From a virus (Duplodnaviria; Caudoviricetes): 58,613 bases of DNA. The notes beneath the pieces are model-generated. The model was not told where the DNA came from. It made no database searches and saw nothing but the letters and a program-made list of their open reading frames with translations. Positions 3,001 through 54,366 of the stretch are shown in pieces (within the stretch, counting starts at the first letter, position 1; each line of letters starts with the position of its first letter). The stretch covers positions 1-58,613 of IMG/VR virus record IMGVR_UViG_3300030102_005973; one strand, written 5' to 3'. Both the position numbers and the translations under genes were made by a program.

Positions 3001-3006
3001 CATACA

Positions 3007-3246
3007 ATGACAGAGCAAAAGATTCAAGCCAAAAGAATAAAACAGCTTGAAGCTGAAGGATACTTTGTCATAAAACTTGTCAAAACTAATAAGAACGGAA
3101 TACCAGATTTACTAGCTCTTCACCCAGATAAGCCTATACTCTTTGTAGAAGTCAAAACAAAAAACGGAAAGATATCTAAGCTCCAGGAGTATCGTATACA
3201 AGAGCTTGAAACCCATGGATTTACTTGTGAAATATTTAGAGGGTAG
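3007..3246 (+). CDS. VRR-NUC nuclease / Holliday junction resolvase-like
   Basis: E..IQ, GIPDL, FVEVK, S.LQ motifs. Confidence 0.8.
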   Translation: MTEQKIQAKRIKQLEAEGYFVIKLVKTNKNGIPDLLALHPDKPILFVEVKTKNGKISKLQEYRIQELETHGFTCEIFRG

Positions 3247-3283
3247 TGTTATTTTAAAATATTAAAAAAAATTTTATAATTTA

Positions 3284-3481
3284 GTGTTCATGGATGGATT
3301 AACACCAGTTGAAAATAAACGTATACGAAATATAAATTTTGTAATGGCTGATCTACATTCTTCACTGAACACAATATACGAACATCTTATCGACAAAGAA
3401 TATGTCCCACTCAGAGGTGAGGTTAATAATCTAACGAAAAAATTACGTAGCGTTGGCGATTCAGTTACCGATGAAGTTTGA
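3284..3481 (+). CDS. Hypothetical protein (start may be the ATG at 3290)
   Basis: ORF track; co-oriented with replication genes. Confidence 0.55.
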   Translation: MFMDGLTPVENKRIRNINFVMADLHSSLNTIYEHLIDKEYVPLRGEVNNLTKKLRSVGDSVTDEV

Positions 3482-3557
3482 TCCCGATTATGATTTTATA
3501 GCAGCAACAGCTATCTCAGCGATAGTCATGTATATTCTTTTTTTGCTTATCTTCTAA
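3471..3557 (+). CDS. 28-aa single-TM microprotein MKFDPDYDFIAATAISAIVMYILFLLIF
   Basis: Hand translation; overlaps the upstream stop; hydrophobic stretch. Confidence 0.4.
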   Translation: MKFDPDYDFIAATAISAIVMYILFLLIF

Positions 3558-3720
3558 GACCTCTTCTCCTTCTTCTTTGCGAAATTATTGATGGCCTTTT
3601 CTTTTTTGGATGTATTCTTTTTGGCAGTGTACCCGATGTAGTTTCACGTTCCCATTTTTCTGCAATCTCAGGCAGATTCTTATACATGTAGGCTCTCTGG
3701 GCTTGACTTCTAAATGGCAT
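3547..3720 (-). CDS. 57-aa basic protein MPFRSQAQRAY...SQRRRRRGLRR
   Basis: Hand translation; starts just after the stop of the large virion gene; MPF.S.AQR start is common in small phage proteins. Confidence 0.7.
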   Translation of the reverse strand: MPFRSQAQRAYMYKNLPEIAEKWERETTSGTLPKRIHPKKKRPSIISQRRRRRGLRR

Positions 3721-3722
3721 AA

Positions 3723-6700
3723 TTACTTGTATAAATCTTCGAGAAGTTCTTTCTCAATATCTTTAATTTCTTTTTCTAACTTTTTTATTTCTGGATCCTG
3801 CTCTTCTGCTTTTATTTCATCATATAAGTCTGGAAACAGCATCTTTAGTTCTTTATCAGCAACCCTTGAACTTCTTTGTCTTTTTTTCCTGCCCTTGATA
3901 GCATACTCAGAGAAGTTAAATAACCTGAGAATAGCCTCACCCATATCTTTTGAATCTAAAACCTTACTGTAGTTATTAACTAACTTTTTTACTGTTAATA
4001 AAGGCAGTCCAGAAGCTTGAGCCAACTCAAGGTAAAAGTCATTCATGTACTGAGCTTTCAACCGAGGATCTTTGGTACGTTCGGCTTTATTAAACTTCTC
4101 TGTCACCGCTTTTGCAATAGCCAAAATACCAACATCTTTACTTGCCGTCCATGGTTTACCAGTAAGTTTATCTCCTAAAGTAGTAAAAACTTGTCCCCAA
4201 ATAAATATAGCATTTAGATTTCCTATTATAGCTGCTCTCCACAAGTCTTCGTCATCATCATCTCTAAACTCTCTTAAAAGCCCAGGAAGTCCTAGGGTTA
4301 CATATTGGAATAACACAGGCATAAATATGTGATACATAACAAATGTACGTATGTTTTCGCCTATAGTTCCTTTGCCAGCCTGGCGATCCCAAGCTAAAAG
4401 CTTTCTATTCAAGGCCCTAACAGCTTGGATTTCCTTTCTAAAATATTGTTTTGGTGTTGTTAAGAACATGTTAGCGGCTCTTGTAAGCGGTCCTTTTGTT
4501 TGATAAAAGTCCTTATCTTGAAGGTCGCTCGACTGCTGGGTTCTTTTTGTATCCCTTTCAAACTTTATAATTGCATGATCAATGGCTTCTTGTTCAGTTG
4601 CGTTAGGATTATTCTTTTTAAACTGATCTTTGTAATAAGAATAGTTTGGAGCTCCCCCTAACATTATCGCTGTCCGGTCACCCACTATAACTTGTGCCAT
4701 TAAAAAGTTTACAATCCAATCTTTAGTTCTTGCACCTAGTGGTAAAACTTTGTTGGCTTCGTTTTCACTATAGTTCTCTATTTGTCTTAATATGGAATTG
4801 TTGTTTCTATCCTGCATGTATACAGAATTATCCCTAATTTCTTTGAACACCTGGAGTTGTTGGCTTTTATTTTTAGCAGCATATTTAAGCCAATTAGCTA
4901 TGCCTATGTCATTAGCATATGTAAATAATGAGGTTAACTGCTTGATCATAATCACCGGAGAAATACCCAGTCTTGAAATCAAAAAGGCTGTATTCAAACC
5001 ATCTAAAAGAGGTGTGTAATAACTTTTTTCCCTACCTCGGCTCGCAATCTTTTTAATGGCATCGTCTATTAAACTATTTATTCTCTGCCCATGTATATTT
5101 CTTATTGCATCTTTGATATACTGGTTGGTGAATAGTTTGTTTATATCTCTAATAGCAGAAGAATATGCAGCAAAATACTCCATGTCATCAATGTAATTTG
5201 TAAGTGCAGTAGTTCCGTCCGTATAAATTATTTTCTTATTATTTCTGCTCCTAGCTTTAGTGGAAGCCGAACCAACCGCAGTTTGCATAATTCCTTGATC
5301 ACCAAGTAAATCTAACTCATTAGGAGCAGTTCCTTCTCTTACTAAATAACCTGCATAATATTTATTCATCGGCAGGTCAGTTCTATATATTTTCTTATAA
5401 GCTTCGTTGTAATGAGTGTATAAGGTTGGATATAAAACATTGACTTGCCAGTCGGCAAACCTTTTTAGGTCAGGATCAATGTAGTTTTCAATCTCTTCCA
5501 TGATCCTATCAGTTTGTTCTCCATACATAGCTTCAAAAGCACCCCTGTTAGCAGGATCTTTAAACTGATTGTACATGTAGTACAGTTGATTTTGAGACTG
5601 ATATATTTCCTCTTCGTCTATAATGTTATCAACCTTCTGTTTCTTATCTACACTTGTAGGGTCTTTTTCATATTCTTGTTGCGCCTTAGCAACTCTCTCT
5701 GGGTTTTTATATATACCTGTTGCTTCAAGTTGACTAAACTGTTTGTTTCTTTTTCTCCAGTTAGCACCTAAATAGTTGGCCATTTCTTTATCCAGCAACG
5801 TAGACAATACCAGTCTTCTTTTTTTAAACTCTCTTGAAGCTGCATCTATTTTATCAGTCACCAATACTTGAGCTCTACCACCAAACAGCTCCCCTGGTAA
5901 AGAAGATATTCTATCCATCAAGCCATCTAAAGCCTCCTGCGATCCAAAGAAAAAATTATCAATCTCTCGCATAATATTTCTTACTAATGTGGCTGCCCTG
6001 TTCTTAACTTTTCTTCGGTTAGTTGCATTGTTACGCGCAAACTTTTCGTTTTCAAGCTGTTCATTTAAGTCTGGGTCGTCCAGATTTAATTTATTGCCTG
6101 TTATGTCGTAGTAAAGTTCAGCAAATTGTCTTCGATATTCTTGCGCTTGAGATTCAATCTGGGCTTTGAGAACCGATCGACCAAACTGAACCATACCAGA
6201 TAAGGCATCAAAAGCCTGATCTAACATCAACGTTTTGTTTGCATCTGTGTTTTCTAGAAGGGAAGCATTGTTTAGATTTATAGCTATTTGAAGATCTACC
6301 ATCTTGTTAACAACAAAAGGGTCTTGATTAGGGTCTTGAGCTAACTCTAAAAACTCTCTGTTCAAAGCTTCGTTCTTATCAGATATTTCCTCCTCTGTAG
6401 CTGTCGGTGGCAGAACATTATTAGTTATAGCTTCTATCCTTTTTCTAGTGTCTAGATCAATTTTTATAGCTTTTTTTCTGCCACTTACTAAAACCTCATA
6501 TTTACCGGTAAGGATTTTATTGATTTGATTTTGTAGAGCAACGTTATTCTTAGCCGTGGCTAAGTCTATAACCTCCTCCATTATGTTTTCAATATTAGCA
6601 TTGGTAGCCTGCTCAATCTTTTGAACTAGTTGCAACGCCTCCTTTTTGGTAAATATCGCAGGTGGTAAAGTCTTTCGCATGAAGTTACGCAGCTCTCTCT

Positions 6701-9700
6701 TGACCTTTTGCAAATCCCTTTGACCCTTTGATCTAGCTCTGACAAGAGCTCTGGCGGCTCTAATTTTAATTGCTATGTCTTTAGTTGGCCTCTGGTTTAG
6801 TGTCTTTTGCAGATCTGAAAGCATCAATGCCTGTTGTGTAGACAAAGTTTTTCTGGCTTTTGCTTCACCTTTTACCTTATACGTATCGGCTTCGTTTTTA
6901 TATTCGACTTGATTCTCTAAAAACGCAACAGCCTTATCCATGATTTGGGCGTCGGTCAATTTATTTTTTCGTCGATTGTTTAAGTTATTTTCTTTTTTGA
7001 TCAACGATTCTATCTTGTTGAAGAGTTTTAGACCAGCTTTAGCCCCTCCTTTTATATTTTTAAAACTCTCTGGCAGGGCTCCCAGTATCTCTGAGTCTAA
7101 CCCCATGAGCTCTTTTATATCTTTAACACGAAGCTTTTGTACACGTTTAAGATAATCAACAATCAATTCATCTCTAAAGCCAGCTTCTCTTCCTTCACGA
7201 ATATAATCAGCCGGCGTTCTTTGTTGTCTTCTTCTAGTGGTCTGAGCAAACGGGTTGAACTTTCTTCCATCACGTACAAGAAACAATCCTCCTCCTCTAC
7301 CAAACTGATCTTCTCTAGCTCGTCTTGCTTCTAACCCGAATGGAGCTACAGCTTTACGCAACTGTGACAGGTTCGCGGTCTTGGGTATAAAGCCTTGGTT
7401 GTCCATATTATACTGCTGGGCCACCTGCTCTATTGTCCTTTGTTGTCTTCTTTGAGTTTTGTACGAATCAATGTTGAGATTTAAAAGAATAATTTCACTA
7501 GTAGTTCCGTCATCAAATTGAGTAACTATTCCATCGTATCCATCAGCTTTTAAAGATTCCGTTAATTGTATCCCTTTTTGGTTATTATATTTTTTAGACA
7601 AATTTCGTTTATATTCTATAAGAGTATCGTCAGTAATTTTAATAACTAAGGGGTTTTTTATTTCAATTTGACCTGATTCAAATCCTTGCGGTATAAATCC
7701 CTCCTGAACCTCTGTGACATAAATACCTGCAGGTTCAACGTCTTGCCCAAACTCTGACCCTCTATCTAAAGCTTTTTCTGTATTTCTTTTATAAGTAAAA
7801 TTAAAAGGTTTACCAGTTTGAATTTTTTGCTGTCTTCTTTGTCTTGGAGATATTTCTCGAATACCTGAACCATATGGAGCTACTGCCTGAGACTTTTCTT
7901 GTTGTGTAAGTTGTTTTTTATACTTATCAACCATCTCTTGAGGCATAATGTCAAAAGCATCTACCTTGACATCTGGCACTCCTAACACCTCTCCTAAAAC
8001 TTCATTGTTATATGTAGAATGCTGTGAACCATCTCGAGCTGAAGTGGGTTTAATAACTAGCATTACATCATTTATGTTAAAATCATTTGCCTTATAAAAT
8101 CCATCGCGTAAATCGTTCGGGTTTATAAAACCATCTTTTGATTTTATAAGTTTGTGGAACTCCGTATTTGGCGTACCCTGTTGGTCAACCACAGCGTTTA
8201 AAAATGCTTTTCTTTGTGGACTATCTCTGAGAGCTTCCCAGCTATCAAAATTATTTAAGACGTCTCGTATAGCTTTTACAGGGTTTGTAGCCAATGCATC
8301 AGCCTTAAATGTATCATAATCTCCAAGTTTACTTATAAATACATCGTAAACTTTTTTATTAAACAGCAGGCTACGTTCAGGAGAACCACTTATAATAAAC
8401 AAATAATCTGCGAGATTTATATTTTTTTCAATAGACTTTGTAGATTTTGAGCTTGCCCATACCGCCTCACCATCGAAAGCATAGCTTGGACCAGCGTCAA
8501 GTTGGATGCCTTCAAACTCTCCTAAACCTAACTGATCAGCTACCCAAAACCAAACCTTTTCTTTTTTTGCGTTGATGTCCTCTATTAAAGACATGATATC
8601 AATTCTTTTGTCGGGGGTGACAAGTGACAACGGATATGACTCCTCAAACTCAATTTGCTGCCTTGGCTTTGGCACTCTTATTTCTGTAGGGTCTCCTACC
8701 GGATTTGTGCCATCTTCTAAAATCTCAACATCACCCTCAGTAATCTCTTCTCCTGTCGTAACTTTTGTTGATAAAGTATTTAATAAATCAATTACATCGT
8801 TGTCGGTTTTTGTAAACTCTGTTAGATTAAGATCAACACCTAAAGTTCTAGCCAAGTCCTCTATAAATTTTATAACAATATTCTTTTGCGGTTTGGTCAG
8901 TGTCTGATACTCAGAAGCCATTATTCCAATAAGCTCTGCAAGCCTCTCTTCGTTCTGCAACTCGCTTACATCCTGGTATGATTCTGCAAACGTGTCTATC
9001 CTTCTAGCCAGTTCGCTATCGTTAGATAAAGTTTTGCGAACAGACATCATCATTTTTTCAGCAACCTGAGCTGCTTTAGGATCTGTCTTAATTTTACTTA
9101 AAAATACAGCGTGAAAAACCTCGTGGGGAACAGTGGTCCCAGTGGCTTTTGACAGATTTATATGTATGGTATCGCCAATAAGTTCACCTCTTCCTGGAGC
9201 AGCAAACTTTAAGTATTCCGATTCATTCTCATGTATTACAATTCGAGTGTTAGGTAGGAGATTTTTTATAGCACTTGCCGCTGTTCTGGCTATTTTAGTG
9301 ACGTTGTTTTCTCTTTGTATTTGTTCTGCACCTTTTTCAACTGTTTCACCTGCTCTATTTACACTTAGATTAGACTCCACTGTTTCGGTGGTCTCTTCTA
9401 CTTCTTCTCCAAAAAATGCATCAATATCTTGTTGTTCCTCCGTAAGCTGAGTCTCTGTCTCTACTTCCTGCTCTTGCTCTTCAACAAAGTCTGGAATAGG
9501 TTCTTCAACCGTCTGCTCCTTAGTCAAGACTTGTTCTATTTGATTGTCAATCTGTTGTATTTGTTGATCAATATTACCAACAGTTGCTGGGTCTTTGTCT
9601 GCTTTTTCATTTTGTAATTCTTGCTTACTTGCTAAAAGACCTAATATTTGTTGTTGCTTTTCAAGACTTATGTCTGTTGGTATTTGATTGGCTAAACCAG

Positions 9701-11630
9701 CTGCCTTGTCAAAGTTTTCTAATTCATTTTGTGCCTCTTCCTTTGTAAGCTCACCCTTTTCAATCCTTTGTTTCTGCTGTTGGACAAATGCTTTTTTGGT
9801 AAATCTATCATTTCGAATGTTTAAAAACATTTTTAAAACCTCCTTATCAACCCTAGTGAAATCTTTTTGAGCATAAGCATCACTGATAGCTGGCAAGGTT
9901 CCCAGCACAAACCCGCCTACAGCCTCTTGACCAGCTGCATAGGCTATCTCACTTAATATCTCAGTTACACCTTCAGGTGTTTGAAAAAGATCTTTTCCTT
10001 TTAAAGATTCAAACAATTCTTTTCCACCTATGTCTGCAGCCTCTTGAAAAGCTCCTGTTTCTGCTTCAGCTAAAGCAGCAGTGGTAAATCTGGATCCAGC
10101 CCTTCCCAGTTTGCTTTTTATTTCATTTCTAATAAAATCATTTAACACTGATGCATTTGCATTTGTTGGAACTTTTTTAGCTACATTAAATAATAATCTT
10201 TTTACTAAGGAACTATTACCTAAAACGTTTCTAAAACCAAAATTTTCTAATTGTGCTATAACAAGTGATAAAGGCACCTTTAACAACGCCTTTTCATCTT
10301 CTGTTAAATCAAGGTCCTTGAACTCCTCTTGGTATTGTGAATTGACTTGAGCAAATAATGCTGGTATCCTAACAAATTTACCTCCTGGAGCAAGTAAAGC
10401 TGGTAAGCTACGGGCTAATCCTAAAAAGGCACCAGGAAAAAACTTCTGCTGTTGGGCCATCATCCATTGTTCAGAAACATCTTTACCTCCAAATGTTTCA
10501 ACAAAAAACTCTCTTATCGGAGGCAACACTTTTTCTTTAAACTCTTTTTTTCTTTTATCAGAGGCTATTTTTTCTTCTTCCGTCATTTCACGTCTTGGAA
10601 CTTTACCCCCTATGTCTATTGCTAAATCAACTATACCGGCTGGTATTTCTCCTACACCTCTTAAAAAACTATCAACAAGCCCAGCCGCCATTGATCCTTG
10701 GCTTCTTTTCATGTCGTAGTATTCGCCAACAGCGGCATTTAATTGCTTTTCTCTAAACTCAAAGTCTTTATAATAGTTTTGTATTTGCTGATAACTCTTG
10801 TTAAGACGGATCATTTCTTGATTATACTTATCTATACGATCCTTTTGCGCCCTTCGTTGCTGTTCAGATAATGCCTGTAAAGCCTTGCCTTCCTCTTCCA
10901 AAACACTTTGTTCATATAGATAATTGTTTAGATTTTTTGAAAAGGAATTAGCTTCTTCATTCAAAGCATCCATTCTTTCTTGAATCTCCTTTTCGTTCTC
11001 AAAAATCATCTTTTTGTAATCGTACTTCTCAATAGCTTTGTTTATCTGAAGCGTGTCTTGCTTGTTGGCATCGATAAACTTATTGAGCCTATCCCTTTCT
11101 TCCCTGTTTTGAGCTGTTGTAAATGCATCAAGACCTATTGTAATGGTTTCGTTGTTAGGCGCAGTAACCTTTACATTGTCAGTAAGGCCTGTTTCTTCAA
11201 AAACAAAACCATCATTTTTAAATTTATAGTTGAGTTTAGGAAGAATAAACTCTTCATCCTTGCTTATTTCCTCTAAAGTAACAGGTAAATCGGGATCTTC
11301 TTCTGGAATTATCTCGGTTGTTTCAACTACAGTTTGAGTTTCAACCTCAGGTTGGGTATCAATTTTTGGGGCTTGGATCGTAGGTTGCGCCAAAGAACCA
11401 TCCACCAATTGTAATTCCGTATCTTCTTTTTTTTTTGGAGGCTCTACGATACCCATCAGGGATTGAAAGTCTTGTAGGGTGCCGCCATATCCATCATTCT
11501 TAAACAAGCCATAAGAGTATTCCACAGCCTCTGGATTCTCTTTTAATAAAGCGCTGTATTGATCTTTACTTCCAGTGTATCCGTCGTTTTGAAATAGTCC
11601 AAAAGAATATTCTAAAGCCTCGTCTTCCAT
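3723..11630 (-). CDS. Giant ejection / polyvalent virion protein (2635 aa) with zincin-like and ADP-ribosyltransferase-like domains
   Basis: Last gene of the internal-virion block; HEVFH at about 9111-9125; GIYVT...NPLVI...LKADGYDGIV...EII segment at about 7457-7824. Confidence 0.7.
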   Translation of the reverse strand: MEDEALEYSFGLFQNDGYTGSKDQYSALLKENPEAVEYSYGLFKNDGYGGTLQDFQSLMGIVEPPKKKEDTELQLVDGSLAQPTIQAPKIDTQPEVETQTVVETTEIIPEEDPDLPVTLEEISKDEEFILPKLNYKFKNDGFVFEETGLTDNVKVTAPNNETITIGLDAFTTAQNREERDRLNKFIDANKQDTLQINKAIEKYDYKKMIFENEKEIQERMDALNEEANSFSKNLNNYLYEQSVLEEEGKALQALSEQQRRAQKDRIDKYNQEMIRLNKSYQQIQNYYKDFEFREKQLNAAVGEYYDMKRSQGSMAAGLVDSFLRGVGEIPAGIVDLAIDIGGKVPRREMTEEEKIASDKRKKEFKEKVLPPIREFFVETFGGKDVSEQWMMAQQQKFFPGAFLGLARSLPALLAPGGKFVRIPALFAQVNSQYQEEFKDLDLTEDEKALLKVPLSLVIAQLENFGFRNVLGNSSLVKRLLFNVAKKVPTNANASVLNDFIRNEIKSKLGRAGSRFTTAALAEAETGAFQEAADIGGKELFESLKGKDLFQTPEGVTEILSEIAYAAGQEAVGGFVLGTLPAISDAYAQKDFTRVDKEVLKMFLNIRNDRFTKKAFVQQQKQRIEKGELTKEEAQNELENFDKAAGLANQIPTDISLEKQQQILGLLASKQELQNEKADKDPATVGNIDQQIQQIDNQIEQVLTKEQTVEEPIPDFVEEQEQEVETETQLTEEQQDIDAFFGEEVEETTETVESNLSVNRAGETVEKGAEQIQRENNVTKIARTAASAIKNLLPNTRIVIHENESEYLKFAAPGRGELIGDTIHINLSKATGTTVPHEVFHAVFLSKIKTDPKAAQVAEKMMMSVRKTLSNDSELARRIDTFAESYQDVSELQNEERLAELIGIMASEYQTLTKPQKNIVIKFIEDLARTLGVDLNLTEFTKTDNDVIDLLNTLSTKVTTGEEITEGDVEILEDGTNPVGDPTEIRVPKPRQQIEFEESYPLSLVTPDKRIDIMSLIEDINAKKEKVWFWVADQLGLGEFEGIQLDAGPSYAFDGEAVWASSKSTKSIEKNINLADYLFIISGSPERSLLFNKKVYDVFISKLGDYDTFKADALATNPVKAIRDVLNNFDSWEALRDSPQRKAFLNAVVDQQGTPNTEFHKLIKSKDGFINPNDLRDGFYKANDFNINDVMLVIKPTSARDGSQHSTYNNEVLGEVLGVPDVKVDAFDIMPQEMVDKYKKQLTQQEKSQAVAPYGSGIREISPRQRRQQKIQTGKPFNFTYKRNTEKALDRGSEFGQDVEPAGIYVTEVQEGFIPQGFESGQIEIKNPLVIKITDDTLIEYKRNLSKKYNNQKGIQLTESLKADGYDGIVTQFDDGTTSEIILLNLNIDSYKTQRRQQRTIEQVAQQYNMDNQGFIPKTANLSQLRKAVAPFGLEARRAREDQFGRGGGLFLVRDGRKFNPFAQTTRRRQQRTPADYIREGREAGFRDELIVDYLKRVQKLRVKDIKELMGLDSEILGALPESFKNIKGGAKAGLKLFNKIESLIKKENNLNNRRKNKLTDAQIMDKAVAFLENQVEYKNEADTYKVKGEAKARKTLSTQQALMLSDLQKTLNQRPTKDIAIKIRAARALVRARSKGQRDLQKVKRELRNFMRKTLPPAIFTKKEALQLVQKIEQATNANIENIMEEVIDLATAKNNVALQNQINKILTGKYEVLVSGRKKAIKIDLDTRKRIEAITNNVLPPTATEEEISDKNEALNREFLELAQDPNQDPFVVNKMVDLQIAINLNNASLLENTDANKTLMLDQAFDALSGMVQFGRSVLKAQIESQAQEYRRQFAELYYDITGNKLNLDDPDLNEQLENEKFARNNATNRRKVKNRAATLVRNIMREIDNFFFGSQEALDGLMDRISSLPGELFGGRAQVLVTDKIDAASREFKKRRLVLSTLLDKEMANYLGANWRKRNKQFSQLEATGIYKNPERVAKAQQEYEKDPTSVDKKQKVDNIIDEEEIYQSQNQLYYMYNQFKDPANRGAFEAMYGEQTDRIMEEIENYIDPDLKRFADWQVNVLYPTLYTHYNEAYKKIYRTDLPMNKYYAGYLVREGTAPNELDLLGDQGIMQTAVGSASTKARSRNNKKIIYTDGTTALTNYIDDMEYFAAYSSAIRDINKLFTNQYIKDAIRNIHGQRINSLIDDAIKKIASRGREKSYYTPLLDGLNTAFLISRLGISPVIMIKQLTSLFTYANDIGIANWLKYAAKNKSQQLQVFKEIRDNSVYMQDRNNNSILRQIENYSENEANKVLPLGARTKDWIVNFLMAQVIVGDRTAIMLGGAPNYSYYKDQFKKNNPNATEQEAIDHAIIKFERDTKRTQQSSDLQDKDFYQTKGPLTRAANMFLTTPKQYFRKEIQAVRALNRKLLAWDRQAGKGTIGENIRTFVMYHIFMPVLFQYVTLGLPGLLREFRDDDDEDLWRAAIIGNLNAIFIWGQVFTTLGDKLTGKPWTASKDVGILAIAKAVTEKFNKAERTKDPRLKAQYMNDFYLELAQASGLPLLTVKKLVNNYSKVLDSKDMGEAILRLFNFSEYAIKGRKKRQRSSRVADKELKMLFPDLYDEIKAEEQDPEIKKLEKEIKDIEKELLEDLYK

Positions 11631-47088: not shown

Positions 47089-47311
47089 TAGTAAATGGTT
47101 CATCATGTATAAGCATAGTATAACCCGCGCGTTTGTCGTAGTATATCTCACTATCTTTCTCGATAGCTACAACTTCAGTACCTATTGCAACGATCCTTCC
47201 CTTCTTATAGCGAAGTTGGTTGGCGTCTTCAGCAGAAAGCAAAAGTCCCGATGAGGTTTTAAGCTCCTCATCAATAGTTTTTATTACTACATATTTACCG
47301 ATTGGTTTCAT
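47054..47311 (-). CDS. groES: Co-chaperonin GroES
   Basis: KPIG..V.I...T.SGLLL...G.IVAIG...II.E.DI; overlaps the groEL stop. Confidence 0.85.
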   Translation of the reverse strand: MKPIGKYVVIKTIDEELKTSSGLLLSAEDANQLRYKKGRIVAIGTEVVAIEKDSEIYYDKRAGYTMLIHDEPFTIIRESDIVVVV

Positions 47312-48900
47312 TGGCTATCATATGTACGCGCCATAGTTACAATGGCGTTGGTTGATAATATTGAAACTGCCACAGATACAGCATTTTGAAGGGCAGTACG
47401 TGTAACTTTAAGCGGGTCTATAATTCCCATCTCAATCATATCGCCGGTTTTCCCAGTTTTTACATCAAGCCCGTGGCCTGTTTTATCTAAGAAATCAGGC
47501 GAAAAATCACTTCCAGCGTTTTGCAGTATCTGAGTCATAGGCGCTTGCAGCGCCTCCATCATGATCGCGTAAGCGATCGATTTTTTATTTTGATATTTTA
47601 TATCCTCAGCGGCCTCCCATAGTGCAAGCCCACCACCTGGCAGGATACCCTCAAGTAGTGCTGAACGAACCGCGCATACCGCATCATCAACCCGATCATA
47701 TAGCTCTTTCTGTTCTAGGTCAGTGTTACCACCTACGTTTATTACACCTATTCCACCGGTTAGTGACGCTATTCTAGACATAATAAAATCTTTGTCAGCC
47801 TTTTTAGTAGTTATCTTATGTGCATCCCACAGTTCTTCAACTCTTTTGTCAATGTCATCTTGACGAACTTTGTCCTCATTTTTTAGAATTATAGTGCTAT
47901 CTTTCCCCACTATTACCTTTGATGCTCTACCGAGATCTTTGAAAGTCATAAGACTTAGGTCATCACCTGTACTTTCAGAAAAATAAGTAGCACCTACCGA
48001 AAGAGCGATGTCATGCATCAGCTCGTGGCGTTTGTAACCAAAATTGGGAGGTATAATGGTACAAAGTTTCAGATTGTTCTTCATGACGTTTGCCGCCAAC
48101 GTGTTTGTTACGTTTTGAGAACACGGTGCTACTATTAATAGTTTTTTGTTCTCAGCGATTATTGGCTTTAGAACATTCTCAATCGATAGAATATTATTTA
48201 TATCAGAGTCAGATACCAAGACATAGGCGTCCTCAAGTATACACTCATCCTTTTTGTGGTTGTTTATAAACAGGTGGCTTGAGTATCCGCGATCAACTTT
48301 TATACCCTGGGTAGTCTCAAATGTGGTATCAGAAGTTTGGCTTTTCTCAACCGTTACAATACCGTTCTTGCCAACTGACTTGTAAGTGTCCGCTATAATT
48401 TTCCCTATCTCACTGTCATTGTTTGATGATATGGTCGCCACATCCAAAAGCTTCTTCTCACTTACAGGCTTTGACTTTTTACGAAGTTTGTCAACCACCT
48501 TCTCAGTGACTTTGACTAGCTCTCTCAATATCTCAGTCTTGTTATCTTTTGGCCCGATCATCTGAGTACCATGATCGACAAGTGCCCTGGTAAGTACAAT
48601 AGCTGTTGTGGTGCCATCACCCGCAATACTAGCGGTTCGCTCCGCAGCCTCCTTCATCATTTGCACCGACAGGTTCTCAACTGGATCAAGAAGCTGGATG
48701 CTTTTAGCTACTGTTACACCGTCTTTGGTAACAGTAATCCCATGGGTGTGATTAGGTGACTCAATCAAAACAGTATTTCCCATTGGACCTAATGTACTGC
48801 CAACTGCGCTTGCTAATTTATTTATACCTGATGTAAGTTTGTCTCTGCCGTCTTTGCCAAAGTGCAGATCCTTTGGTGAATATCCTCCCGTTTCATTCAT
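47308..48900 (-). CDS. groEL: Chaperonin GroEL
   Basis: TLGP.G, TKDGVTVA, GDGTTT, DR.DDA, GI.PGGG, GIIDP.KV motifs. Confidence 0.95.
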   Translation of the reverse strand: MNETGGYSPKDLHFGKDGRDKLTSGINKLASAVGSTLGPMGNTVLIESPNHTHGITVTKDGVTVAKSIQLLDPVENLSVQMMKEAAERTASIAGDGTTTAIVLTRALVDHGTQMIGPKDNKTEILRELVKVTEKVVDKLRKKSKPVSEKKLLDVATISSNNDSEIGKIIADTYKSVGKNGIVTVEKSQTSDTTFETTQGIKVDRGYSSHLFINNHKKDECILEDAYVLVSDSDINNILSIENVLKPIIAENKKLLIVAPCSQNVTNTLAANVMKNNLKLCTIIPPNFGYKRHELMHDIALSVGATYFSESTGDDLSLMTFKDLGRASKVIVGKDSTIILKNEDKVRQDDIDKRVEELWDAHKITTKKADKDFIMSRIASLTGGIGVINVGGNTDLEQKELYDRVDDAVCAVRSALLEGILPGGGLALWEAAEDIKYQNKKSIAYAIMMEALQAPMTQILQNAGSDFSPDFLDKTGHGLDVKTGKTGDMIEMGIIDPLKVTRTALQNAVSVAVSILSTNAIVTMARTYDSQ

Positions 48901-50097: not shown

Positions 50098-50101
50098 CAC
50101 C

Positions 50102-50491
50102 ATGAGAGACAAACAACATACTGAAATCAAACGTAACTCACTCACTCTCAGTGAGTTACCTAACTTAAACCCTATAAAAATGAAAGCAAAGTATTACTAC
50201 ATTGATTATTCAAGTGAAACCAAAACTTATGACGTCATAGATTGTACTGATCCAGTTGACCAACCAATTGTTGGAAGTTTTGCTTATGAGGAAAATGCAA
50301 TCAAATTCCACCAAAAATTAAGACGCAATGAAGTATGGAAAAGAATGATATCAAAGATGTCAACAGAAGAAATTCAAACAAGATGCATTTTAGTTACAGC
50401 GTCACAAAAACAAGGTTTAGGTGATTCGGAAGAAAACGATACTTTTTACAATTTGTTAAATCACGAATATCACCTTAGACTTGAAGATTAA
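50102..50491 (+). CDS. Early hypothetical protein (start may be MKAKYY at 50180)
   Basis: ORF track; its stop codon lies inside hammerhead stem I. Confidence 0.55.
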   Translation: MRDKQHTEIKRNSLTLSELPNLNPIKMKAKYYYIDYSSETKTYDVIDCTDPVDQPIVGSFAYEENAIKFHQKLRRNEVWKRMISKMSTEEIQTRCILVTASQKQGLGDSEENDTFYNLLNHEYHLRLED

Positions 50492-50539
50492 CTGATGAGG
50501 ATTCAATATCCGAAACTATCCGAAAGGATAGTCTTAATC
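50486..50539 (+). ncRNA. Hammerhead ribozyme, type I
   Basis: Stem I GATTAA/TTAATC; CTGATGA; stem II GGAT/ATCC; GAAA; stem III CTATCC-GAAA-GGATAG; GTC cleavage triplet at 50531-50533. Confidence 0.9.
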
Positions 50540-50556
50540 AACAAAAATTATTAATT

Positions 50557-51510
50557 ATGAATAATCAAGACAAAATTTACAAAAAGGTAAATGACATCGT
50601 CCTAAAGGGACTGAAAAAAGACGGAATGAAATGGTTCATGCCATGGAAATCGGGTGATGAAAATCAACCCATGAATTATAACTACAAAACCTACTATCGT
50701 GGTTTCAATGTGTTTATGCTTAACGCAGTTATGATGGAGCAAGGATACGAGCATAACCAATGGATCACACTAAAGAAATGTAAAGAGATTGGTGGATCGA
50801 TCAAGGATGGTCAGTTTGGCAAAACTACTGATGTGTTCAAATGGAACGTAGGTTATTATGATATCAAGAAAAAATGCTATGTGCCAACCAAGGATTATAA
50901 GAAGATCAATAAATCAGAGGAAATTGTAATTGATGGTAAAATCCAAAAACGTTACAGAACTACATTCTCTATTAGATATTGGCAAGTCTATAACATTGGG
51001 CAATGCAATGGCATTGAGCCAATCGTATTTGATCAGTCTGAGATCACCAAGGTGAATGAGCCAATCAAGGATGCTGATGATCTTGCGAAAAGCTATGTAG
51101 ATCGAGATGGTAAGCTAAGACTTGAACATCTACGTGATGGTGCATTTTACAATGTAGCTAAAGACATGGTCAATATGCCTAAACTTGAAACGTTTGTGGA
51201 CTCTGATTCGTACTACAAAGTGCTTTTCCATGAGCTAGCCCATTCAACTGGACACAATGATCGAATGGATCGTAAAAGTCTTACAGAAGTCTCCTATTGG
51301 GGTGATAACACCTATGCCAAGGAGGAACTGGTCGCTGAGATATCTGCGATGTACATCTCAGGGATGTTGGGACTTGATCCGAAAGACTCTGATCAGAATA
51401 GTGTGGCCTATATCAAAGGATGGTGTAAACACCTAAGCGATAAGCCGAAAGAATGCCTATACGCCATGCAACAAGCTACCAAAGTGGTTGCCTACATCCA
51501 AGGTAAATAA
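50557..51510 (+). CDS. ardC: ArdC-like antirestriction protein (ssDNA-binding domain plus zincin-like domain)
   Basis: W..PW, Y.G.N...L, W.T...., HELAHSTGH, YAKEELVAE, S.AYI.GW motifs. Confidence 0.85.
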   Translation: MNNQDKIYKKVNDIVLKGLKKDGMKWFMPWKSGDENQPMNYNYKTYYRGFNVFMLNAVMMEQGYEHNQWITLKKCKEIGGSIKDGQFGKTTDVFKWNVGYYDIKKKCYVPTKDYKKINKSEEIVIDGKIQKRYRTTFSIRYWQVYNIGQCNGIEPIVFDQSEITKVNEPIKDADDLAKSYVDRDGKLRLEHLRDGAFYNVAKDMVNMPKLETFVDSDSYYKVLFHELAHSTGHNDRMDRKSLTEVSYWGDNTYAKEELVAEISAMYISGMLGLDPKDSDQNSVAYIKGWCKHLSDKPKECLYAMQQATKVVAYIQGK

Positions 51511-51554
51511 ATCCGGGATTGGATCATGGAGGGGATCGTTTCCCCTCCCCGGAT
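51511..51554 (+). ncRNA. tRNA-like minihelix (acceptor-like stem plus T-arm-like hairpin)
   Basis: ATCCGGG/CCCGGAT closing stem stacked on GAGGGG-ATCGTTT-CCCCTC. Confidence 0.45.
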
Positions 51555-51597
51555 CGACAATATTGTCATTAACTAACAACAAAAATTATTAATTATT

Positions 51598-52083
51598 ATG
51601 AAAATCAATTTTATTAAGTATGAACATTCCCACGGTGGTAGGGAAAAGTATTTTCCAGTCGGTAAGAAGAAAGATGGAGTTGGCGATTGTGTAATAAGAG
51701 CAGTCGCACTATCATTGGAAATGGATTACATGGAGGCTTTTAAAGATTTAATGGATGTCGCAGTTGAGAAAGGGATTCCTTACGCTAATAGTCAAAGGGT
51801 TTATGAGTCTTACCTAGATAACAAAGGATGGACTAAAAAATCCTTGAAACAAGGTAAGAGTTGGTTACCAATGTGGAAACATAAAAGGTTTTTAGATGTT
51901 AACAAAAACTATATTTTTTATGTTAGAGTTGGATTTAGGACACATCTTACATCAGTTGTAAAGGGTATTAATAAAGACACATGGTTATGTCAAGAAAGCA
52001 TGGCATATGCAATGTATGAAAGTCCATGTTTAAAGGGTCATCCTGAAACGCTTGATTGCGAATGTAAAAACGAGAGATCATGA
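51598..52083 (+). CDS. Early protein with GDCVIRA motif
   Basis: DC..RA...H....G...DTW pattern, possibly a Cys/His peptidase-like fold. Confidence 0.55.
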   Translation: MKINFIKYEHSHGGREKYFPVGKKKDGVGDCVIRAVALSLEMDYMEAFKDLMDVAVEKGIPYANSQRVYESYLDNKGWTKKSLKQGKSWLPMWKHKRFLDVNKNYIFYVRVGFRTHLTSVVKGINKDTWLCQESMAYAMYESPCLKGHPETLDCECKNERS

Positions 52084-52328
52084 AACAGAGACTATTGAAA
52101 TTTATTTGGAACACCTTGTCTAAAATGGACAAGGGAAGGATATGGGATTATGAATCTGCACCATATTGTGGTCATCATCATCAGGGATTTGAAAACAAGT
52201 ACATCTCAGAAAGCTATCTCGAAGGTGAAGGTGGAGGATTCTCAAAAGTCTCATTGTTGGGTTACATCATTGAGATGGACAATGTCTTCCAGTCGGGAAC
52301 AATGTATCATTTAGTTAAAAAGAAGTAA
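52080..52328 (+). CDS. Early hypothetical protein
   Basis: ATGA-coupled to the upstream gene. Confidence 0.55.
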   Translation: MKQRLLKFIWNTLSKMDKGRIWDYESAPYCGHHHQGFENKYISESYLEGEGGGFSKVSLLGYIIEMDNVFQSGTMYHLVKKK

Positions 52329-52355
52329 CCGATGTCAGGGAGGAGTAATCCTCCC

Positions 52356-52406
52356 TCTGTCGATAGGTGTGTGCCTATCCTGATGAGATCAAAAGGTCGA
52401 AACAGA
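52356..52406 (+). ncRNA. Hammerhead ribozyme, type III
   Basis: Stem III TCTGT/ACAGA; GTC triplet at 52359-52361; stem I GATAGGT-GTGT-GCCTATC; CTGATGA; stem II GATC-AAAA-GGTC; GAAA. Confidence 0.9.
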
Positions 52407-52428
52407 TTATTAACTAACAACAAAAATT

Positions 52429-52710
52429 ATGTTACATTCAAAATTCAGTTTATCATTTGATACAGATAATCAGATGGTATCGATTTACATTGGCTATGAA
52501 GATAAGTATGGAAAATCTTTCATTGCACCAACCTTTCATTTCAATGACTATGGTAAATTAATTATTCCTCCCAACACCGAGAGAGGATACAACAGGTCAA
52601 CCTTTAGCTATTTAGCAAGACACGTAAAAACTAAGGTAGCTGATTTCAAAAAACATATTGAAGATGAATATCTTCAAGAACTGATTATTAAGTTAGAACA
52701 ACAGATATGA
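52429..52710 (+). CDS. Early hypothetical protein
   Basis: Follows the shared leader. Confidence 0.6.
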   Translation: MLHSKFSLSFDTDNQMVSIYIGYEDKYGKSFIAPTFHFNDYGKLIIPPNTERGYNRSTFSYLARHVKTKVADFKKHIEDEYLQELIIKLEQQI

Positions 52711-52949
52711 AAACAATCGTAGACACAAAAGTGATTGAAAAAGCTATCTCCTATAAAGGGGATAGCTATATGGTATGGGAGTATACCAATGACAAGAGGA
52801 ACAAAGAGATAGCGATCATGGATTCGACAGGATATGATGTAAGTCTAATGACCAAAGTCATCGAGGATGGCGATGTGGAAACGGAGGTACATTTACATTG
52901 TCCTGATCCTGAAGAATACATACATGAACAATTTATAAACTTTAAATAA
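52707..52949 (+). CDS. Early hypothetical protein
   Basis: ATGA-coupled. Confidence 0.55.
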   Translation: MKTIVDTKVIEKAISYKGDSYMVWEYTNDKRNKEIAIMDSTGYDVSLMTKVIEDGDVETEVHLHCPDPEEYIHEQFINFK

Positions 52950-52950
52950 A

Positions 52951-53118
52951 ATGAAAGAAATAGAATTAGCGTTAAAATGGTTTGAAATGAATGACATTTC
53001 AGCATACATTACAGATAAAAATTTATATGTGGAAGTAAACCATGACACAACTATTCATATATCAAATGCTGAAATAAGTTATCGAGCAGGCTTGTATAAA
53101 ATACACTATGAAAATTAA
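52951..53118 (+). CDS. 55-aa early hypothetical protein
   Basis: Hand translation MKEIELALKWFEMNDISAY...; fills the gap between neighbours. Confidence 0.5.
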   Translation: MKEIELALKWFEMNDISAYITDKNLYVEVNHDTTIHISNAEISYRAGLYKIHYEN

Positions 53119-54221: not shown

Positions 54222-54253
54222 AAAAACTATTTTTAGTTTTTGTTGTTTGTTGA

Positions 54254-54283
54254 GGGAGGGGCAGAAATGTTCCTCCTTTTTTT
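54254..54283 (+). terminator. Rho-independent terminator of the early operon
   Basis: GGAGGGGCA-GAAA-TGTTCCTCC plus T run. Confidence 0.8.
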
Positions 54284-54366
54284 ATTTTTATTTACCCAAA
54301 AAAAAATTGCATTCATCAAATATTTATAATACTTTTATATAAATTTAATTAAAATCTAATTTTTTT

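What the first reader, a model, noticed from the sequence alone, without database searches (positions are those of the whole stretch)
50486..52431. Early operon punctuated by RNA-processing elements that share a leader
Seen: the three true intergenic spacers in this stretch each begin at or just after a stop codon with a structured RNA: a type I hammerhead (50486-50539), a tRNA-like minihelix (51511-51554), and a GNRA hairpin plus type III hammerhead (52337-52406). Each is followed by a near-identical leader, TTAA(CTAA/T)CAACAAAAATTAT..., before the next ATG. Known: hammerheads occur in phage genomes with mostly unknown roles, and T7 segments its early mRNA with RNase III sites. Inference: this phage cuts its early transcript into separately stabilised units, largely without host nucleases. 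The 'processing element + leader + gene' unit may also be the exchangeable cassette of the early region.
Basis: partly seen in the sequence, partly recalled or inferred. Interest (0 to 1): 0.82.

Follow-up and report, generated by a model that had tools for sequence, protein, structure and literature searches.

The report
Ribozymes and mini-tRNA punctuate phage operon
Three gaps between early genes of a marine phage each hold an RNA-cutting signal (two self-cutting hammerhead ribozymes and a miniature tRNA look-alike) that probably chop one long message into gene-sized pieces; the ribozyme pattern is already known, while the mini-tRNA in the same role appears not to have been described.

Summary
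A full hammerhead descriptor finds two sites in the window: type I at 50486-50539 (cut after 50533) and type III at 52356-52406 (cut after 52361). 300 shuffles gave 2 hits in all. A model built from 48 other phage type I hammerheads scores the first at 57.2 bits. The 51511-51554 element is an acceptor stem plus T-arm mini-tRNA. It scores 36.7 bits against a model built from 16 unrelated phage copies. All three are followed by a near-identical A-rich leader without a Shine-Dalgarno motif.

Relatives place a mini-tRNA, pistol ribozyme, hammerhead or plain hairpin in the same spacers around the ardC anti-restriction gene. A distant phage repeats the order hammerhead, ardC, mini-tRNA. The best reading is cistron-separating RNA processing.

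Hammerhead clusters flanking phage genes, including an anti-restriction gene, and this same interpretation were published in 2011. What appears new is the widespread mini-tRNA that swaps with ribozymes, and a hairpin that usually precedes type III hammerheads. No RNA-level evidence was available. The cassette idea is only partly right.

The parts
50133..50159 (+). 10-bp hairpin in the 5' untranslated region of the first gene of the operon. The real start codon is probably 50180, not 50102.
   Evidence: MFE -12.7 kcal/mol, z -3.1. The untranslated region up to the start codon is conserved in L003 although the gene behind it differs.
50486..50539 (+). Type I hammerhead ribozyme, predicted cut after C at 50533. 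The stop codon of the upstream gene (50489-50491) lies in the 5' strand of stem I.
   Evidence: Descriptor hit. MFE equals the hammerhead fold. 57.2 bits, E 1.2e-14 against model R2, built from 48 other phage type I hammerheads, and the sole hit in the window. Not matched by any Rfam hammerhead model at E<=10.
50534..50556 (+). Leader 1: 23 nt, A-rich, unstructured. It would carry a 5'-OH after cleavage.
   Evidence: MFE 0 kcal/mol. Repeat families D4 and D6. 15-mer match.
50557..51510 (+). ardC-like anti-restriction gene (317 aa)
   Evidence: Pfam ArdcN 4.6e-17 and MPTase-PolyVal 7.7e-30. PHROG 7245, anti-restriction protein, 2e-58.
51511..51554 (+). Mini-tRNA (t-element-like): 7-bp acceptor stem, TGG-containing linker and T-arm, with no anticodon or D stem. 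Predicted host cuts are before 51511 (RNase P) and after 51555 (RNase Z).
   Evidence: Descriptor hit. 11 of 12 pairs covary in alignment A1. 36.7 bits, E 5e-8 against the independent model R3, and the sole hit in the window. Not called a tRNA by ARAGORN or by Rfam.
51556..51567 (+). Small palindromic hairpin directly after the mini-tRNA. It would be the 5'-terminal hairpin of the downstream RNA after a 3' cut.
   Evidence: Folds as 4 bp plus a 4-nt loop. Present with changes that keep the pairing after most mini-tRNAs of the clade.
51568..51597 (+). Leader 2
   Evidence: Unstructured.
52338..52355 (+). 7-bp hairpin (GUAA loop) directly upstream of the type III cut. It would be the 3'-terminal structure of the upstream RNA.
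   Evidence: The stem is kept but the loop differs in L003. 13 of 20 type III hammerheads have such a hairpin, against 5 of 52 type I.
52356..52406 (+). Type III hammerhead ribozyme, predicted cut after C at 52361
   Evidence: Descriptor hit. RF00008 36.5 bits, E 1.2e-5, below the gathering score. In a six-member subfamily, 12 of 15 pairs show changes on both sides and the loops are invariant.
52407..52428 (+). Leader 3
54252..54289 (+). Intrinsic-terminator-like hairpin plus T run: the likely end of the transcription unit that holds the three elements

Best explanation
The first 2.4 kb of the early plus-strand operon of this Bacteroidota-type podophage is transcribed as one RNA. That RNA is then cut in each of its three spacers.

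Two cuts are autocatalytic: the type I hammerhead after 50533 and the type III hammerhead after 52361. The third is made by host tRNA-processing enzymes on a mini-tRNA. This element keeps only what RNase P and RNase Z read: a roughly 12-bp coaxial acceptor/T helix, a T-loop, and a GG that can dock on the T-loop.

All three sites share one layout. The cut falls at the 3' edge of a stable structure, so the upstream message keeps a folded 3' end. That end is the body of the type I ribozyme, the mini-tRNA, or the extra hairpin placed in front of the type III ribozyme. The downstream message starts with a short, unstructured, A-rich leader suited to translation without a Shine-Dalgarno motif. Ribozyme cuts would also leave 2',3'-cyclic phosphate and 5'-OH ends.

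The likely effect is that neighbouring cistrons, above all the ardC anti-restriction gene, get their own stability and translation.

Shown here by computation: identity and structure of the elements, their position and strand, their covariation, their replacement by one another in relatives, and the absence of terminator features.

Inferred: cleavage in vivo, which host enzyme cuts the mini-tRNA and on which side (I favour the 3' side), and any effect on mRNA half-life or protein yield.
For: Element identity.
- The two hammerheads are the only two full-descriptor hits in the window. 300 shuffles gave 2 hits in all.
- The type I copy scores 57.2 bits against a model trained without it. The type III copy belongs to a covarying subfamily with invariant loops.
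- Mini-tRNA: covariation score 0.721 against 0.245 in shuffles, with 0 of 500 shuffles as high. It scores 36.7 bits against a model built from 16 copies in phages that have no DNA similarity to the window.

Position.
- Of 17 mini-tRNA descriptor hits in the window plus 12 loci, all 17 lie on the coding strand, in spacers at stop codons.

Interchange around ardC in 9 distinct relatives and the window.
- Upstream spacer: type I hammerhead in the window; mini-tRNA in L003, L004, L005 and L010; pistol ribozyme (67.5 bits, above Rfam's gathering score) in L012; hairpin in L011.
- Downstream spacer: mini-tRNA in the window, L003, L004, L005 and L012; hairpin in L007, L010 and L011.
- L184, whose ArdC is 29% identical, has type I hammerhead, then ardC, then mini-tRNA.

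Wider sets.
- Of 52 distinct type I hammerheads, 43 have an ORF stop within -40 to +12 nt of their start (median 0). 45 have a start codon within 200 nt of the cut (median leader 25 nt).
- Of 20 type III hammerheads, 13 have a hairpin of -8 kcal/mol or better directly upstream, against 5 of 52 type I (p 1.4e-5).
- Of 111 distinct mini-tRNAs, 97 share the strand of the surrounding genes. The acceptor plus T helix is 12 bp in 49, 13 bp in 32 and 11 bp in 21. Some operons hold 3 to 6 copies, one per spacer.

Other.
- The leaders fold at 0 kcal/mol.
- 0 of 57 predicted genes carry a Shine-Dalgarno 4-mer, and A is enriched at -10 to -13.
- The terminator scan flags none of the three elements but does flag 54252 and 56895.
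- Published precedent: tandem prophage hammerheads cleave in vitro and in E. coli, and flank ardA (Perreault 2011, passages).
Against: - No RNA evidence. No listed holder of this DNA is an RNA run, and the one sizeable metatranscriptome laid gave no cover.
- Rfam does not confirm the hammerheads. The type III copy is below the gathering score (36.5 against 48.5), and the type I copy matches no Rfam hammerhead model at E<=10.
- No stabilising tertiary contact could be identified for the type I copy. Loop II complementarity to flanking sequence across 52 copies is no better than in shuffles (2.35 against 2.27). The rate at cellular Mg2+ is therefore unknown.
- The window's mini-tRNA has an atypical T-loop. 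It may fold as a 7-bp stem with a 5-nt loop, which could weaken enzyme recognition.
- In several relatives the upstream stop codon lies inside the acceptor stem. In the window it abuts position +1. An RNase P cut would therefore strip or expose the stop codon.
- The elements are dispensable. L005 carries a decayed type I relic with a mutated core and a deleted stem III. The nearest GenBank phage, MW202828.1, has only a repeated palindrome in its spacers.
- The wider hammerhead set was fetched with a pattern that required an A-rich stretch downstream. Leader statistics from it are therefore biased.
Confidence: 0.6

Rival explanations
1. The structures act without being cut. They would be 3' stabilisers reached by exonucleases after unrelated endonuclease cuts in the A/U-rich leaders, or insulators that keep each translation start region unfolded. 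The hammerhead cores would then be weakly active or inactive in vivo.
For: Relatives use plain hairpins in the same spacers: the palindrome in L002 and the CCACC-type hairpin in L006, L007, L010 and L011. No tertiary contact was found for the type I copy. The window's mini-tRNA has an atypical T-loop.
Against: Every catalytic core position is kept in both hammerheads, and in 48 + 6 aligned relatives, while the stems vary freely. A stabiliser role does not require this. The pistol ribozyme at the equivalent place scores well above Rfam's threshold. Tandem prophage hammerheads do cleave (Perreault 2011).
Confidence: 0.13
2. The mini-tRNA is made for its own sake. It would be released as a roughly 45-nt RNA, possibly with CCA added, that mimics tRNA, for example as a decoy or binder for a host tRNA-directed enzyme or defence. 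Its place between genes would be incidental.
For: The T-loop and the linker GG are invariant or nearly so. The family is widespread, with more than 100 distinct copies. Real tRNAs also sit in such spacers, as in L007.
Against: Acceptor and T-stem sequences vary freely, with no conserved identity element and no anticodon arm. Up to six different copies sit in a single operon, one per spacer. Ribozymes replace the element at the same spacer. It is always on the coding strand and next to a stop codon in the ardC clade.
Confidence: 0.12
3. The elements and their leaders are mainly recombination linkers or selfish passengers. They would persist because they supply short identical sequences at module borders, with no role in expression.
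For: Homology between the window and L003 breaks at 50185, 50528, 51589 and 52461, all within about 35 nt of a leader or start codon. A 20-nt exact repeat joins two leaders. One gene plus its 3' element is swapped as a block. A decayed copy exists.
Against: A recombination linker needs sequence identity, not RNA structure. Here the stems covary and only the catalytic and loop positions are fixed. The strict strand bias (97 of 111) and the type-specific hairpin rule point to selection at the RNA level. The two roles are not exclusive.
Confidence: 0.1
4. Pairs of cutting elements excise the segment between them, and a host ligase joins the 5'-OH and cyclic-phosphate ends. The result would be circular or spliced RNAs.
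For: Ribozyme cuts give exactly the ends that RtcB-type ligases use (recalled knowledge). Perreault 2011 raised this possibility.
Against: Perreault 2011 reports looking for such products and finding none (passage). In the window, the ardC segment lies between a ribozyme cut and a mini-tRNA, whose enzyme cuts would give other end chemistries. Nothing in the sequence requires this model.
Confidence: 0.03

Closest known systems
Clustered hammerhead ribozymes flanking genes in prophages (Perreault et al. 2011, PLoS Comput Biol, PMC3088659; passages read)
   Same: Several hammerheads of different types flank single genes or short gene blocks in a phage transcript. One well-studied trio flanks an anti-restriction gene (ardA). 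The authors propose processing into single-gene mRNAs, and show cleavage in vitro and in E. coli.
   Different: Here the flanked anti-restriction gene is ardC. One of the three marks is not a ribozyme but a mini-tRNA. Close relatives exchange hammerhead, pistol, mini-tRNA and hairpin at the same spacer. The paper's supplementary figures could not be seen.
tRNA punctuation of mitochondrial transcripts, and plant mitochondrial t-elements (Forner et al. 2007, PMC1920247: search listing and start of abstract only; the punctuation model itself is recalled)
   Same: tRNA-shaped structures between coding regions are thought to serve as RNase P and RNase Z cutting marks that define mRNA 5' and 3' ends.
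   Different: Those are organellar. Here the setting is a phage operon in a bacterial host. The element is cut down to acceptor stem, GG linker and T-arm, and it alternates with self-cleaving ribozymes. Cleavage is untested here.
RNase III processing sites in the T7 early transcript (recalled, no call)
   Same: A phage early polycistronic RNA is cut in its spacers, leaving hairpin 3' ends that stabilise each message.
   Different: T7 uses long, imperfect double-stranded hairpins read by host RNase III. None of the three elements here has that form. The CCACC-type hairpins of some relatives might, but this was not tested.
Pistol, twister and other ribozyme classes found near phage genes (Harris et al. 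2015, PMC4604425, passages; Weinberg, Weinberg and Hammann 2019 review, PMC6765202, passages)
   Same: Different self-cleaving classes occur in the same kind of phage gene neighbourhood. The review states that processing of polycistronic transcripts has been suggested but needs further work.
   Different: Those papers report the association. Here one orthologous spacer can be followed through relatives that each carry a different class.
Theta (HDV-like) ribozymes next to tRNAs in gut phages (Kienbeck et al. 2024, PMC10879173; search listing and start of abstract only)
   Same: Phage ribozymes are linked to tRNA-shaped RNAs and their processing.
   Different: Theta ribozymes sit beside full suppressor tRNAs and are tied to recoding. 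Here there is no anticodon arm, and the ribozymes and the mini-tRNA sit in separate spacers.

Membership tests
Hammerhead ribozyme, type I (element 50486-50539) | Conserved catalytic core (the CUGAUGA and GAAA boxes), the A15.1-U16.1 pair, and a non-G residue at the cleavage site | tested here: met
   All positions are present, with C at 50533. The core motifs used in the descriptor are recalled consensus.
Hammerhead ribozyme, type I (element 50486-50539) | Three helices around the core, with stem I open | tested here: met
   Stems of 6, 4 and 7 bp. The MFE fold is the same junction.
Hammerhead ribozyme, type I (element 50486-50539) | Significant match to a family covariance model | tested here: inconclusive
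   No Rfam hammerhead model matches at E<=10. A model built from 48 other phage type I hammerheads gives 57.2 bits, E 1.2e-14. Those 48 were themselves picked with my descriptor.
Hammerhead ribozyme, type I (element 50486-50539) | Tertiary contact between stems I and II, needed for fast cleavage at low Mg2+ | tested here: inconclusive
   There is no excess loop II to flank complementarity in 52 copies. Loop II is a similar 5-nt loop in many copies.
Hammerhead ribozyme, types I and III | Self-cleavage to 2',3'-cyclic phosphate and 5'-OH ends | not testable with these tools
   No RNA run holds the region.
Hammerhead ribozyme, type III (element 52356-52406) | Core, three helices with stem III open, and a match to Rfam RF00008 | tested here: inconclusive
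   Core and stems are met. RF00008 gives 36.5 bits, E 1.2e-5, under the gathering score of 48.5. The alignment shows a shorter stem II loop and a longer loop I than the model.
Hammerhead ribozyme, type III (element 52356-52406) | Stems supported by compensatory change in relatives | tested here: met
   Six sequences were chosen from the 20 type III hits because they share the window's loop sequences. 12 of 15 pairs show changes on both sides, the score is 0.804 against 0.258, and 0 of 500 shuffles reach it.
tRNA | Cloverleaf with anticodon arm and D arm | tested here: not met
   ARAGORN finds 0 genes in the window. There is no RF00005 match. Only 11 nt lie between the acceptor and T stems.
tRNA-like processing mark (t-element or minihelix substrate of RNase P and RNase Z) | Coaxial acceptor plus T helix of about 12 bp, with a T-loop | tested here: met
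   The window has 7 + 6 bp. In the family the total is 12 bp in 49, 13 bp in 32 and 11 bp in 21 of 111. Covariation is shown. The window's T-loop departs from the usual sequence at two positions.
tRNA-like processing mark (t-element or minihelix substrate of RNase P and RNase Z) | Cleavage by RNase P and/or RNase Z | not testable with these tools
   That minihelices are substrates of these enzymes is recalled knowledge.
tmRNA tRNA-like domain | Acceptor and T-arm joined through an mRNA-like part that carries a tag reading frame | tested here: not met
   Only 17-nt T-arm matches to RF00023, at 12-17 bits, in relatives. ARAGORN finds no tmRNA.
Intrinsic terminator | G+C-rich hairpin followed by a U run | tested here: not met
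   None of the three elements is listed. Plus-strand terminators are listed at 54252 and 56895.

The most novel reading that the evidence does not exclude
Phages use an interchangeable set of 'punctuation marks' to cut polycistronic early RNA right after stop codons. The set comprises type I and type III hammerheads, pistol ribozymes, and a previously undescribed, widespread mini-tRNA class that borrows host RNase P or RNase Z.

One design rule applies to all: a folded 3' end on the upstream message and a naked A-rich leader on the downstream one. Because different marks replace one another at the same spacer in close relatives, the selected function of these long-puzzling phage ribozymes would be the cut itself.
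Probability: 0.35. Interest if true: 0.8.

Novelty: new variant of a known kind. Interest (0 to 1): 0.64.

Why it matters
What the many self-cleaving ribozymes in bacteria and phages do has been open since they were found. Reviews still call the processing idea a suggestion.

This phage clade offers a natural swap experiment. The same spacer next to the same anti-restriction gene holds a hammerhead in one phage, a mini-tRNA in the next and a pistol ribozyme in a third. That argues the cut itself is what is selected. It also gives a small, clonable 2.4-kb test piece with four predicted ends.

The mini-tRNA is more than a curiosity of this one window. More than 100 distinct copies turned up in viral contigs, with up to six in a single operon. 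No Rfam family covers it. If confirmed, it would extend the tRNA-punctuation principle from organelles to phages, and would add a compact, host-enzyme-driven RNA-cutting part for operon design.

Tried and rejected
- Rfam at gathering thresholds: 0 matches in the whole window. The whole-window E-value scan lost even the type III hit to its filters and showed only two terminator-like look-alikes.
- RNA evidence: no RNA holder was listed for 50100-52800. I laid one metatranscriptome and three DNA runs, all as contigs. The RNA run gave no cover. The DNA runs showed only variants and loose ends at the hammerheads and at the ardC start. This says nothing about expression.
- Pseudoknot between loop II and the flanks of type I hammerheads: not above shuffles. 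The five complementary bases seen in the window are best taken as chance.
- A coding reading of the 52329-52428 spacer. The window's 42-aa ORF from 52332 is out of frame with the next gene. In L003 the same stretch is in frame, because of a 1-nt length difference in the leader. No conserved frame exists.
- tRNA, tmRNA and terminator readings of the 51511 element: rejected.
- Relatives of the first gene (50180-50491): none in viral contigs. Whether that gene travels with its hammerhead could not be tested.
- DNA-level search of GenBank phages with 50100-53000: no match.
- A paper id recalled for the 2015 ribozyme-discovery paper was not held. That paper and all supplements were not seen, and they may list motifs that bear on the novelty of the mini-tRNA.
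- Literature searches for a phage mini-tRNA or t-element, or for mixed ribozyme and tRNA-like operons, found nothing relevant. The library lacks most subscription journals.


Full report
WHAT THE WINDOW IS

The window is a whole IMG/VR virus record of 58,613 bases, estimated 99% complete. Its primase carries a BT4734-like N-terminal domain. Its nearest named relatives by primase protein are an uncultured podovirus from a spring (MW202828.1, 63% identity) and then Flavobacterium, Maribacter and Cellulophaga phages. The DNA occurs in marine metagenomes.

None of 57 predicted genes has a Shine-Dalgarno-like 4-mer at -20 to -5, and A is enriched at -10 to -13. This fits a Bacteroidota host, whose mRNAs naturally lack such sequences (Baez et al. 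2019, PMC6847099; listing and start of abstract only).

A long minus-strand block holds most of the long reading frames and ends with a GroEL-like gene. A plus-strand block then starts near 50100. It holds small genes of unknown function, an ardC-like anti-restriction gene, Erf-type and exonuclease recombination genes, and the primase. Terminator-like sites on the plus strand lie at 54252 and 56895. The three elements of the finding therefore sit in the first 2.4 kb of a unit of about 4.2 kb.

I wrote a full hammerhead descriptor. It requires both core boxes, the A15.1-U16.1 pair, a non-G cleavage-site residue, and three stems in either the type I or the type III arrangement.

- It finds two sites in the whole window on both strands: type I at 50486-50539 (cut after 50533) and type III at 52356-52406 (cut after 52361).
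- 300 dinucleotide-preserving shuffles of the window gave two hits in total.
- The minimum-energy fold of 50486-50539 is exactly the three-way junction.
- Rfam is less helpful. Nothing reaches a gathering score. In a 2.3-kb search the type III copy scores 36.5 bits against RF00008 (E 1.2e-5, gathering score 48.5). The type I copy matches no hammerhead model.

I therefore tested the type I copy independently. A model built from 48 other phage type I hammerheads scores it at 57.2 bits, E 1.2e-14, over its full length. It is the only hit in the window.

For the type III copy, five relatives with the same loop sequences align to it without gaps. 12 of 15 base pairs show changes on both sides, while both loops stay invariant. 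Those five were chosen from the 20 type III hits for their likeness to the window.

The third element, 51511-51554, starts on the base after the ardC stop codon.

- It has a 7-bp acceptor-like stem, an 11-nt linker with an invariant TGG, and a 6-bp stem closed by a 7-nt T-like loop.
- It is not a tRNA. ARAGORN finds none and RF00005 does not match.

The shared leader is real.

- The 15-mer occurs three times, with 0 to 1 mismatch, at 50537, 51575 and 52416.
- Leaders 1 and 2 share 20 identical bases.
- The leaders have no predicted structure.

RELATIVES SWAP THE ELEMENTS

Eleven viral contigs encode ArdC at 50-77% identity; nine are distinct.

- In L003 (77%) the spacer upstream of ardC holds a mini-tRNA with a textbook T-arm, in place of the window's type I hammerhead. 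Its downstream spacer holds the same mini-tRNA as the window. The hairpin plus type III hammerhead follow two genes later, with stem changes that keep the pairing.
- L004 and L005 have mini-tRNAs on both sides of ardC.
- L012 has a pistol ribozyme (67.5 bits; gathering score 34.5) one small reading frame upstream, with the upstream stop codon in its first loop. It is followed by a leader like the window's. Three mini-tRNAs lie downstream.
- L005 has a type III hammerhead in the 5' leader of the operon.
- L011 has a variant type I hammerhead (39.6 bits).
- L007 has a real tRNA.
- L006, L007, L010 and L011 fill other spacers with a long hairpin that has conserved flanks.
- MW202828.1 repeats an 18-nt palindrome in at least seven spacers.

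All 17 mini-tRNA descriptor hits in this set lie on the coding strand, against 0.16 hits per shuffled window. In the 13-sequence alignment, 11 of 12 pairs show changes on both sides (score 0.721 against 0.245; 0 of 500 shuffles as high).

A phage whose ArdC is only 29% identical (L184) was fetched by an RNA pattern, not by the protein. It has the same order: type I hammerhead (53.8 bits), ardC (PHROG 7245), mini-tRNA (38.8 bits). It also has two further copies of each element.

WIDER FAMILIES

Hammerheads. A pattern of hammerhead core plus an A-rich word found 88 viral stretches.

- They yield 72 distinct hammerheads, counting the window's two. 18 loci hold two to four each.
- Type I: 43 of 52 have an ORF stop within -40 to +12 nt of their first base (median 0). 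45 of 52 have a start codon within 200 nt of the cut (median 25 nt).
- Type III: the stop lies a median 16 nt upstream of the ribozyme, and the start codon a median 65 nt after the cut.
- That upstream gap is usually a hairpin. 13 of 20 type III copies have a structure of -8 kcal/mol or better in the 36 nt directly upstream, against 5 of 52 type I copies (Mann-Whitney p 1.4e-5).
- The leader figures are biased by the search pattern. The hairpin contrast is not.

Mini-tRNAs.

- Outside ARAGORN-called genes they give 111 distinct elements with a canonical T-loop.
- 97 of 111 share the strand of the surrounding genes.
- The acceptor plus T helix totals 12 bp in 49, 13 bp in 32 and 11 bp in 21.
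- Operons with 3 to 6 copies, one per spacer, are found in L266, L272, L184, L287, L318 and L122.
- A model built from 16 of these scores the window's element at 36.7 bits, E 5e-8. It also recovers every copy of the ardC clade. The 16 were chosen for one fixed geometry, one per acceptor type, after dropping 12 loci with DNA similarity to the window.
- No Rfam family covers the element beyond 17-nt T-arm matches to tmRNA.
- The 236 mini-tRNA loci also hold 14 hammerheads in 10 loci.

HOW IT MOST LIKELY WORKS

All marks share a layout in which the cut falls at the 3' edge of a fold.

- A type I hammerhead and a pistol ribozyme cut near their own 3' ends. They stay on the upstream message as a folded tail, and the next message starts with about 23-25 nt of naked leader.
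- A type III hammerhead cuts near its 5' end. It would leave the upstream message bare, and that is exactly where an extra hairpin is found.
- The mini-tRNA keeps what RNase P and RNase Z recognise: the coaxial acceptor/T helix and the T-loop elbow (recalled knowledge). It is followed by a small hairpin conserved through compensating changes, then by the leader.

In several relatives the upstream stop codon lies inside the acceptor stem. I therefore think the cut that matters is on the 3' side. That would leave the mini-tRNA as the tail of the upstream message.

Ribozyme ends (5'-OH, cyclic phosphate) are poor substrates for 5'-monophosphate-dependent and 3'-exonucleolytic decay (recalled knowledge). 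Each piece would then have its own lifetime.

Shown here: sequence, structure, position, strand, covariation and interchange. Not shown: cleavage, the enzymes involved, and any effect on expression.

THE CASSETTE IDEA

DNA homology between the window and L003 breaks at 50185, 50528, 51589, 52026, 52461 and 52707.

- The first gene differs completely (no BLASTP alignment) and takes its 3' element with it: hammerhead in the window, mini-tRNA in L003.
- The third gene shares only its last 17 residues.
- The fifth gene is a 38%-identical homologue, so that break reflects divergence rather than a swap.

The leaders and start regions thus act as junctions, and the mark travels with the upstream gene. 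This is one pairwise comparison and should be treated as a lead.

WHAT IS KNOWN

Perreault et al. 2011 (passages) described multiple hammerheads flanking single genes or short gene blocks in prophages. They proposed processing into operon-length or single-gene-length mRNAs. They showed cleavage of three tandem arrangements in vitro and of one in E. coli, and noted that the Agrobacterium trio flanks ardA. A 2019 review still calls the processing role a suggestion. Pistol ribozymes are known to lie near phage genes.

The hammerhead part of the finding is therefore a new member of a known kind.

I found no description of the mini-tRNA, of its interchange with ribozymes, or of the type III hairpin rule. 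The library lacks most subscription journals. Supplements were closed, and the 2015 paper that surveyed RNAs near ribozyme-associated genes could not be read.

WEAK POINTS

- There are no RNA data.
- No tertiary contact was identified for the type I copy.
- The window's mini-tRNA has an atypical T-loop.
- L005 carries a decayed hammerhead relic, and some relatives have hairpin-only spacers. The marks are therefore not indispensable.
- Several of my family sets were collected with descriptors that demand the stems. Their percent-paired figures are partly circular. The independent evidence is the covariation, the strand bias and the cross-model scores.

VERDICT

The mini-tRNA, and the interchange of marks at one spacer, make this a new variant of a known kind and give a compact test system for an old question.

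Noticed in passing
L006:1996-2087, L007:4937-5028, L007:5240-5316, L010:1860-1943, L011:3910-3991, L011:4955-5031: Relatives fill spacers around ardC with a different repeated element: a long hairpin with a covarying inner stem, a CCACC/GGTGG outer stem and a conserved 3' tail, followed by the A-rich leader. No Rfam match. It could be an RNase III-type site or an unknown RNA class.
   Followed up: partly
L002 (MW202828.1) 2799-7907: The nearest GenBank phage repeats an 18-nt perfect palindrome in at least seven spacers of its early operon, each followed by an A-rich leader. It has no hammerhead and no mini-tRNA.
   Followed up: no
L005:5585-5640: A decayed copy of the window's type I hammerhead. 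It has the same stem II and loop, but one core base is changed and stem III is deleted. It still sits between two genes in front of the same leader.
   Followed up: partly
L012:3788-3854: A pistol ribozyme (67.5 bits) with the upstream gene's stop codon in the loop of its first hairpin. The predicted cut leaves a leader of about 25 nt before a small reading frame upstream of ardC.
   Followed up: partly
window 50100-50180: The listed ORF start at 50102 is probably wrong. The stretch up to 50180 is conserved in L003 in front of an unrelated gene and holds a 10-bp hairpin (50133-50159). It is more likely a 5' untranslated region.
   Followed up: partly
window 52679-52709: A leader-like sequence (77% identical to leader 3) lies inside the 3' end of the gene at 52429-52710, just before the overlapping start of the next gene. 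It may be a relic of a former spacer.
   Followed up: no
window 47308-48900 (-): The phage encodes a full-length GroEL-type chaperonin (Pfam Cpn60_TCP1, 1.9e-55). MW202828.1 also annotates a groEL gene upstream of its early operon.
   Followed up: no
window 3723-11630 (-): A single open reading frame of 2635 residues on the minus strand; not examined.
   Followed up: no
L184, L223, L250, L322, L026: Loci fetched only by RNA patterns often hold ardC homologues (29-40% identity) within about 1 kb of a hammerhead or mini-tRNA. This hints at a recurrent link between anti-restriction genes and these marks. No background rate was computed.
   Followed up: partly
L245:8092-8916: A run of five descriptor hits in a stretch without long reading frames. 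They look like a cluster of tRNA-like genes or fragments that ARAGORN did not call, rather than operon punctuation.
   Followed up: no
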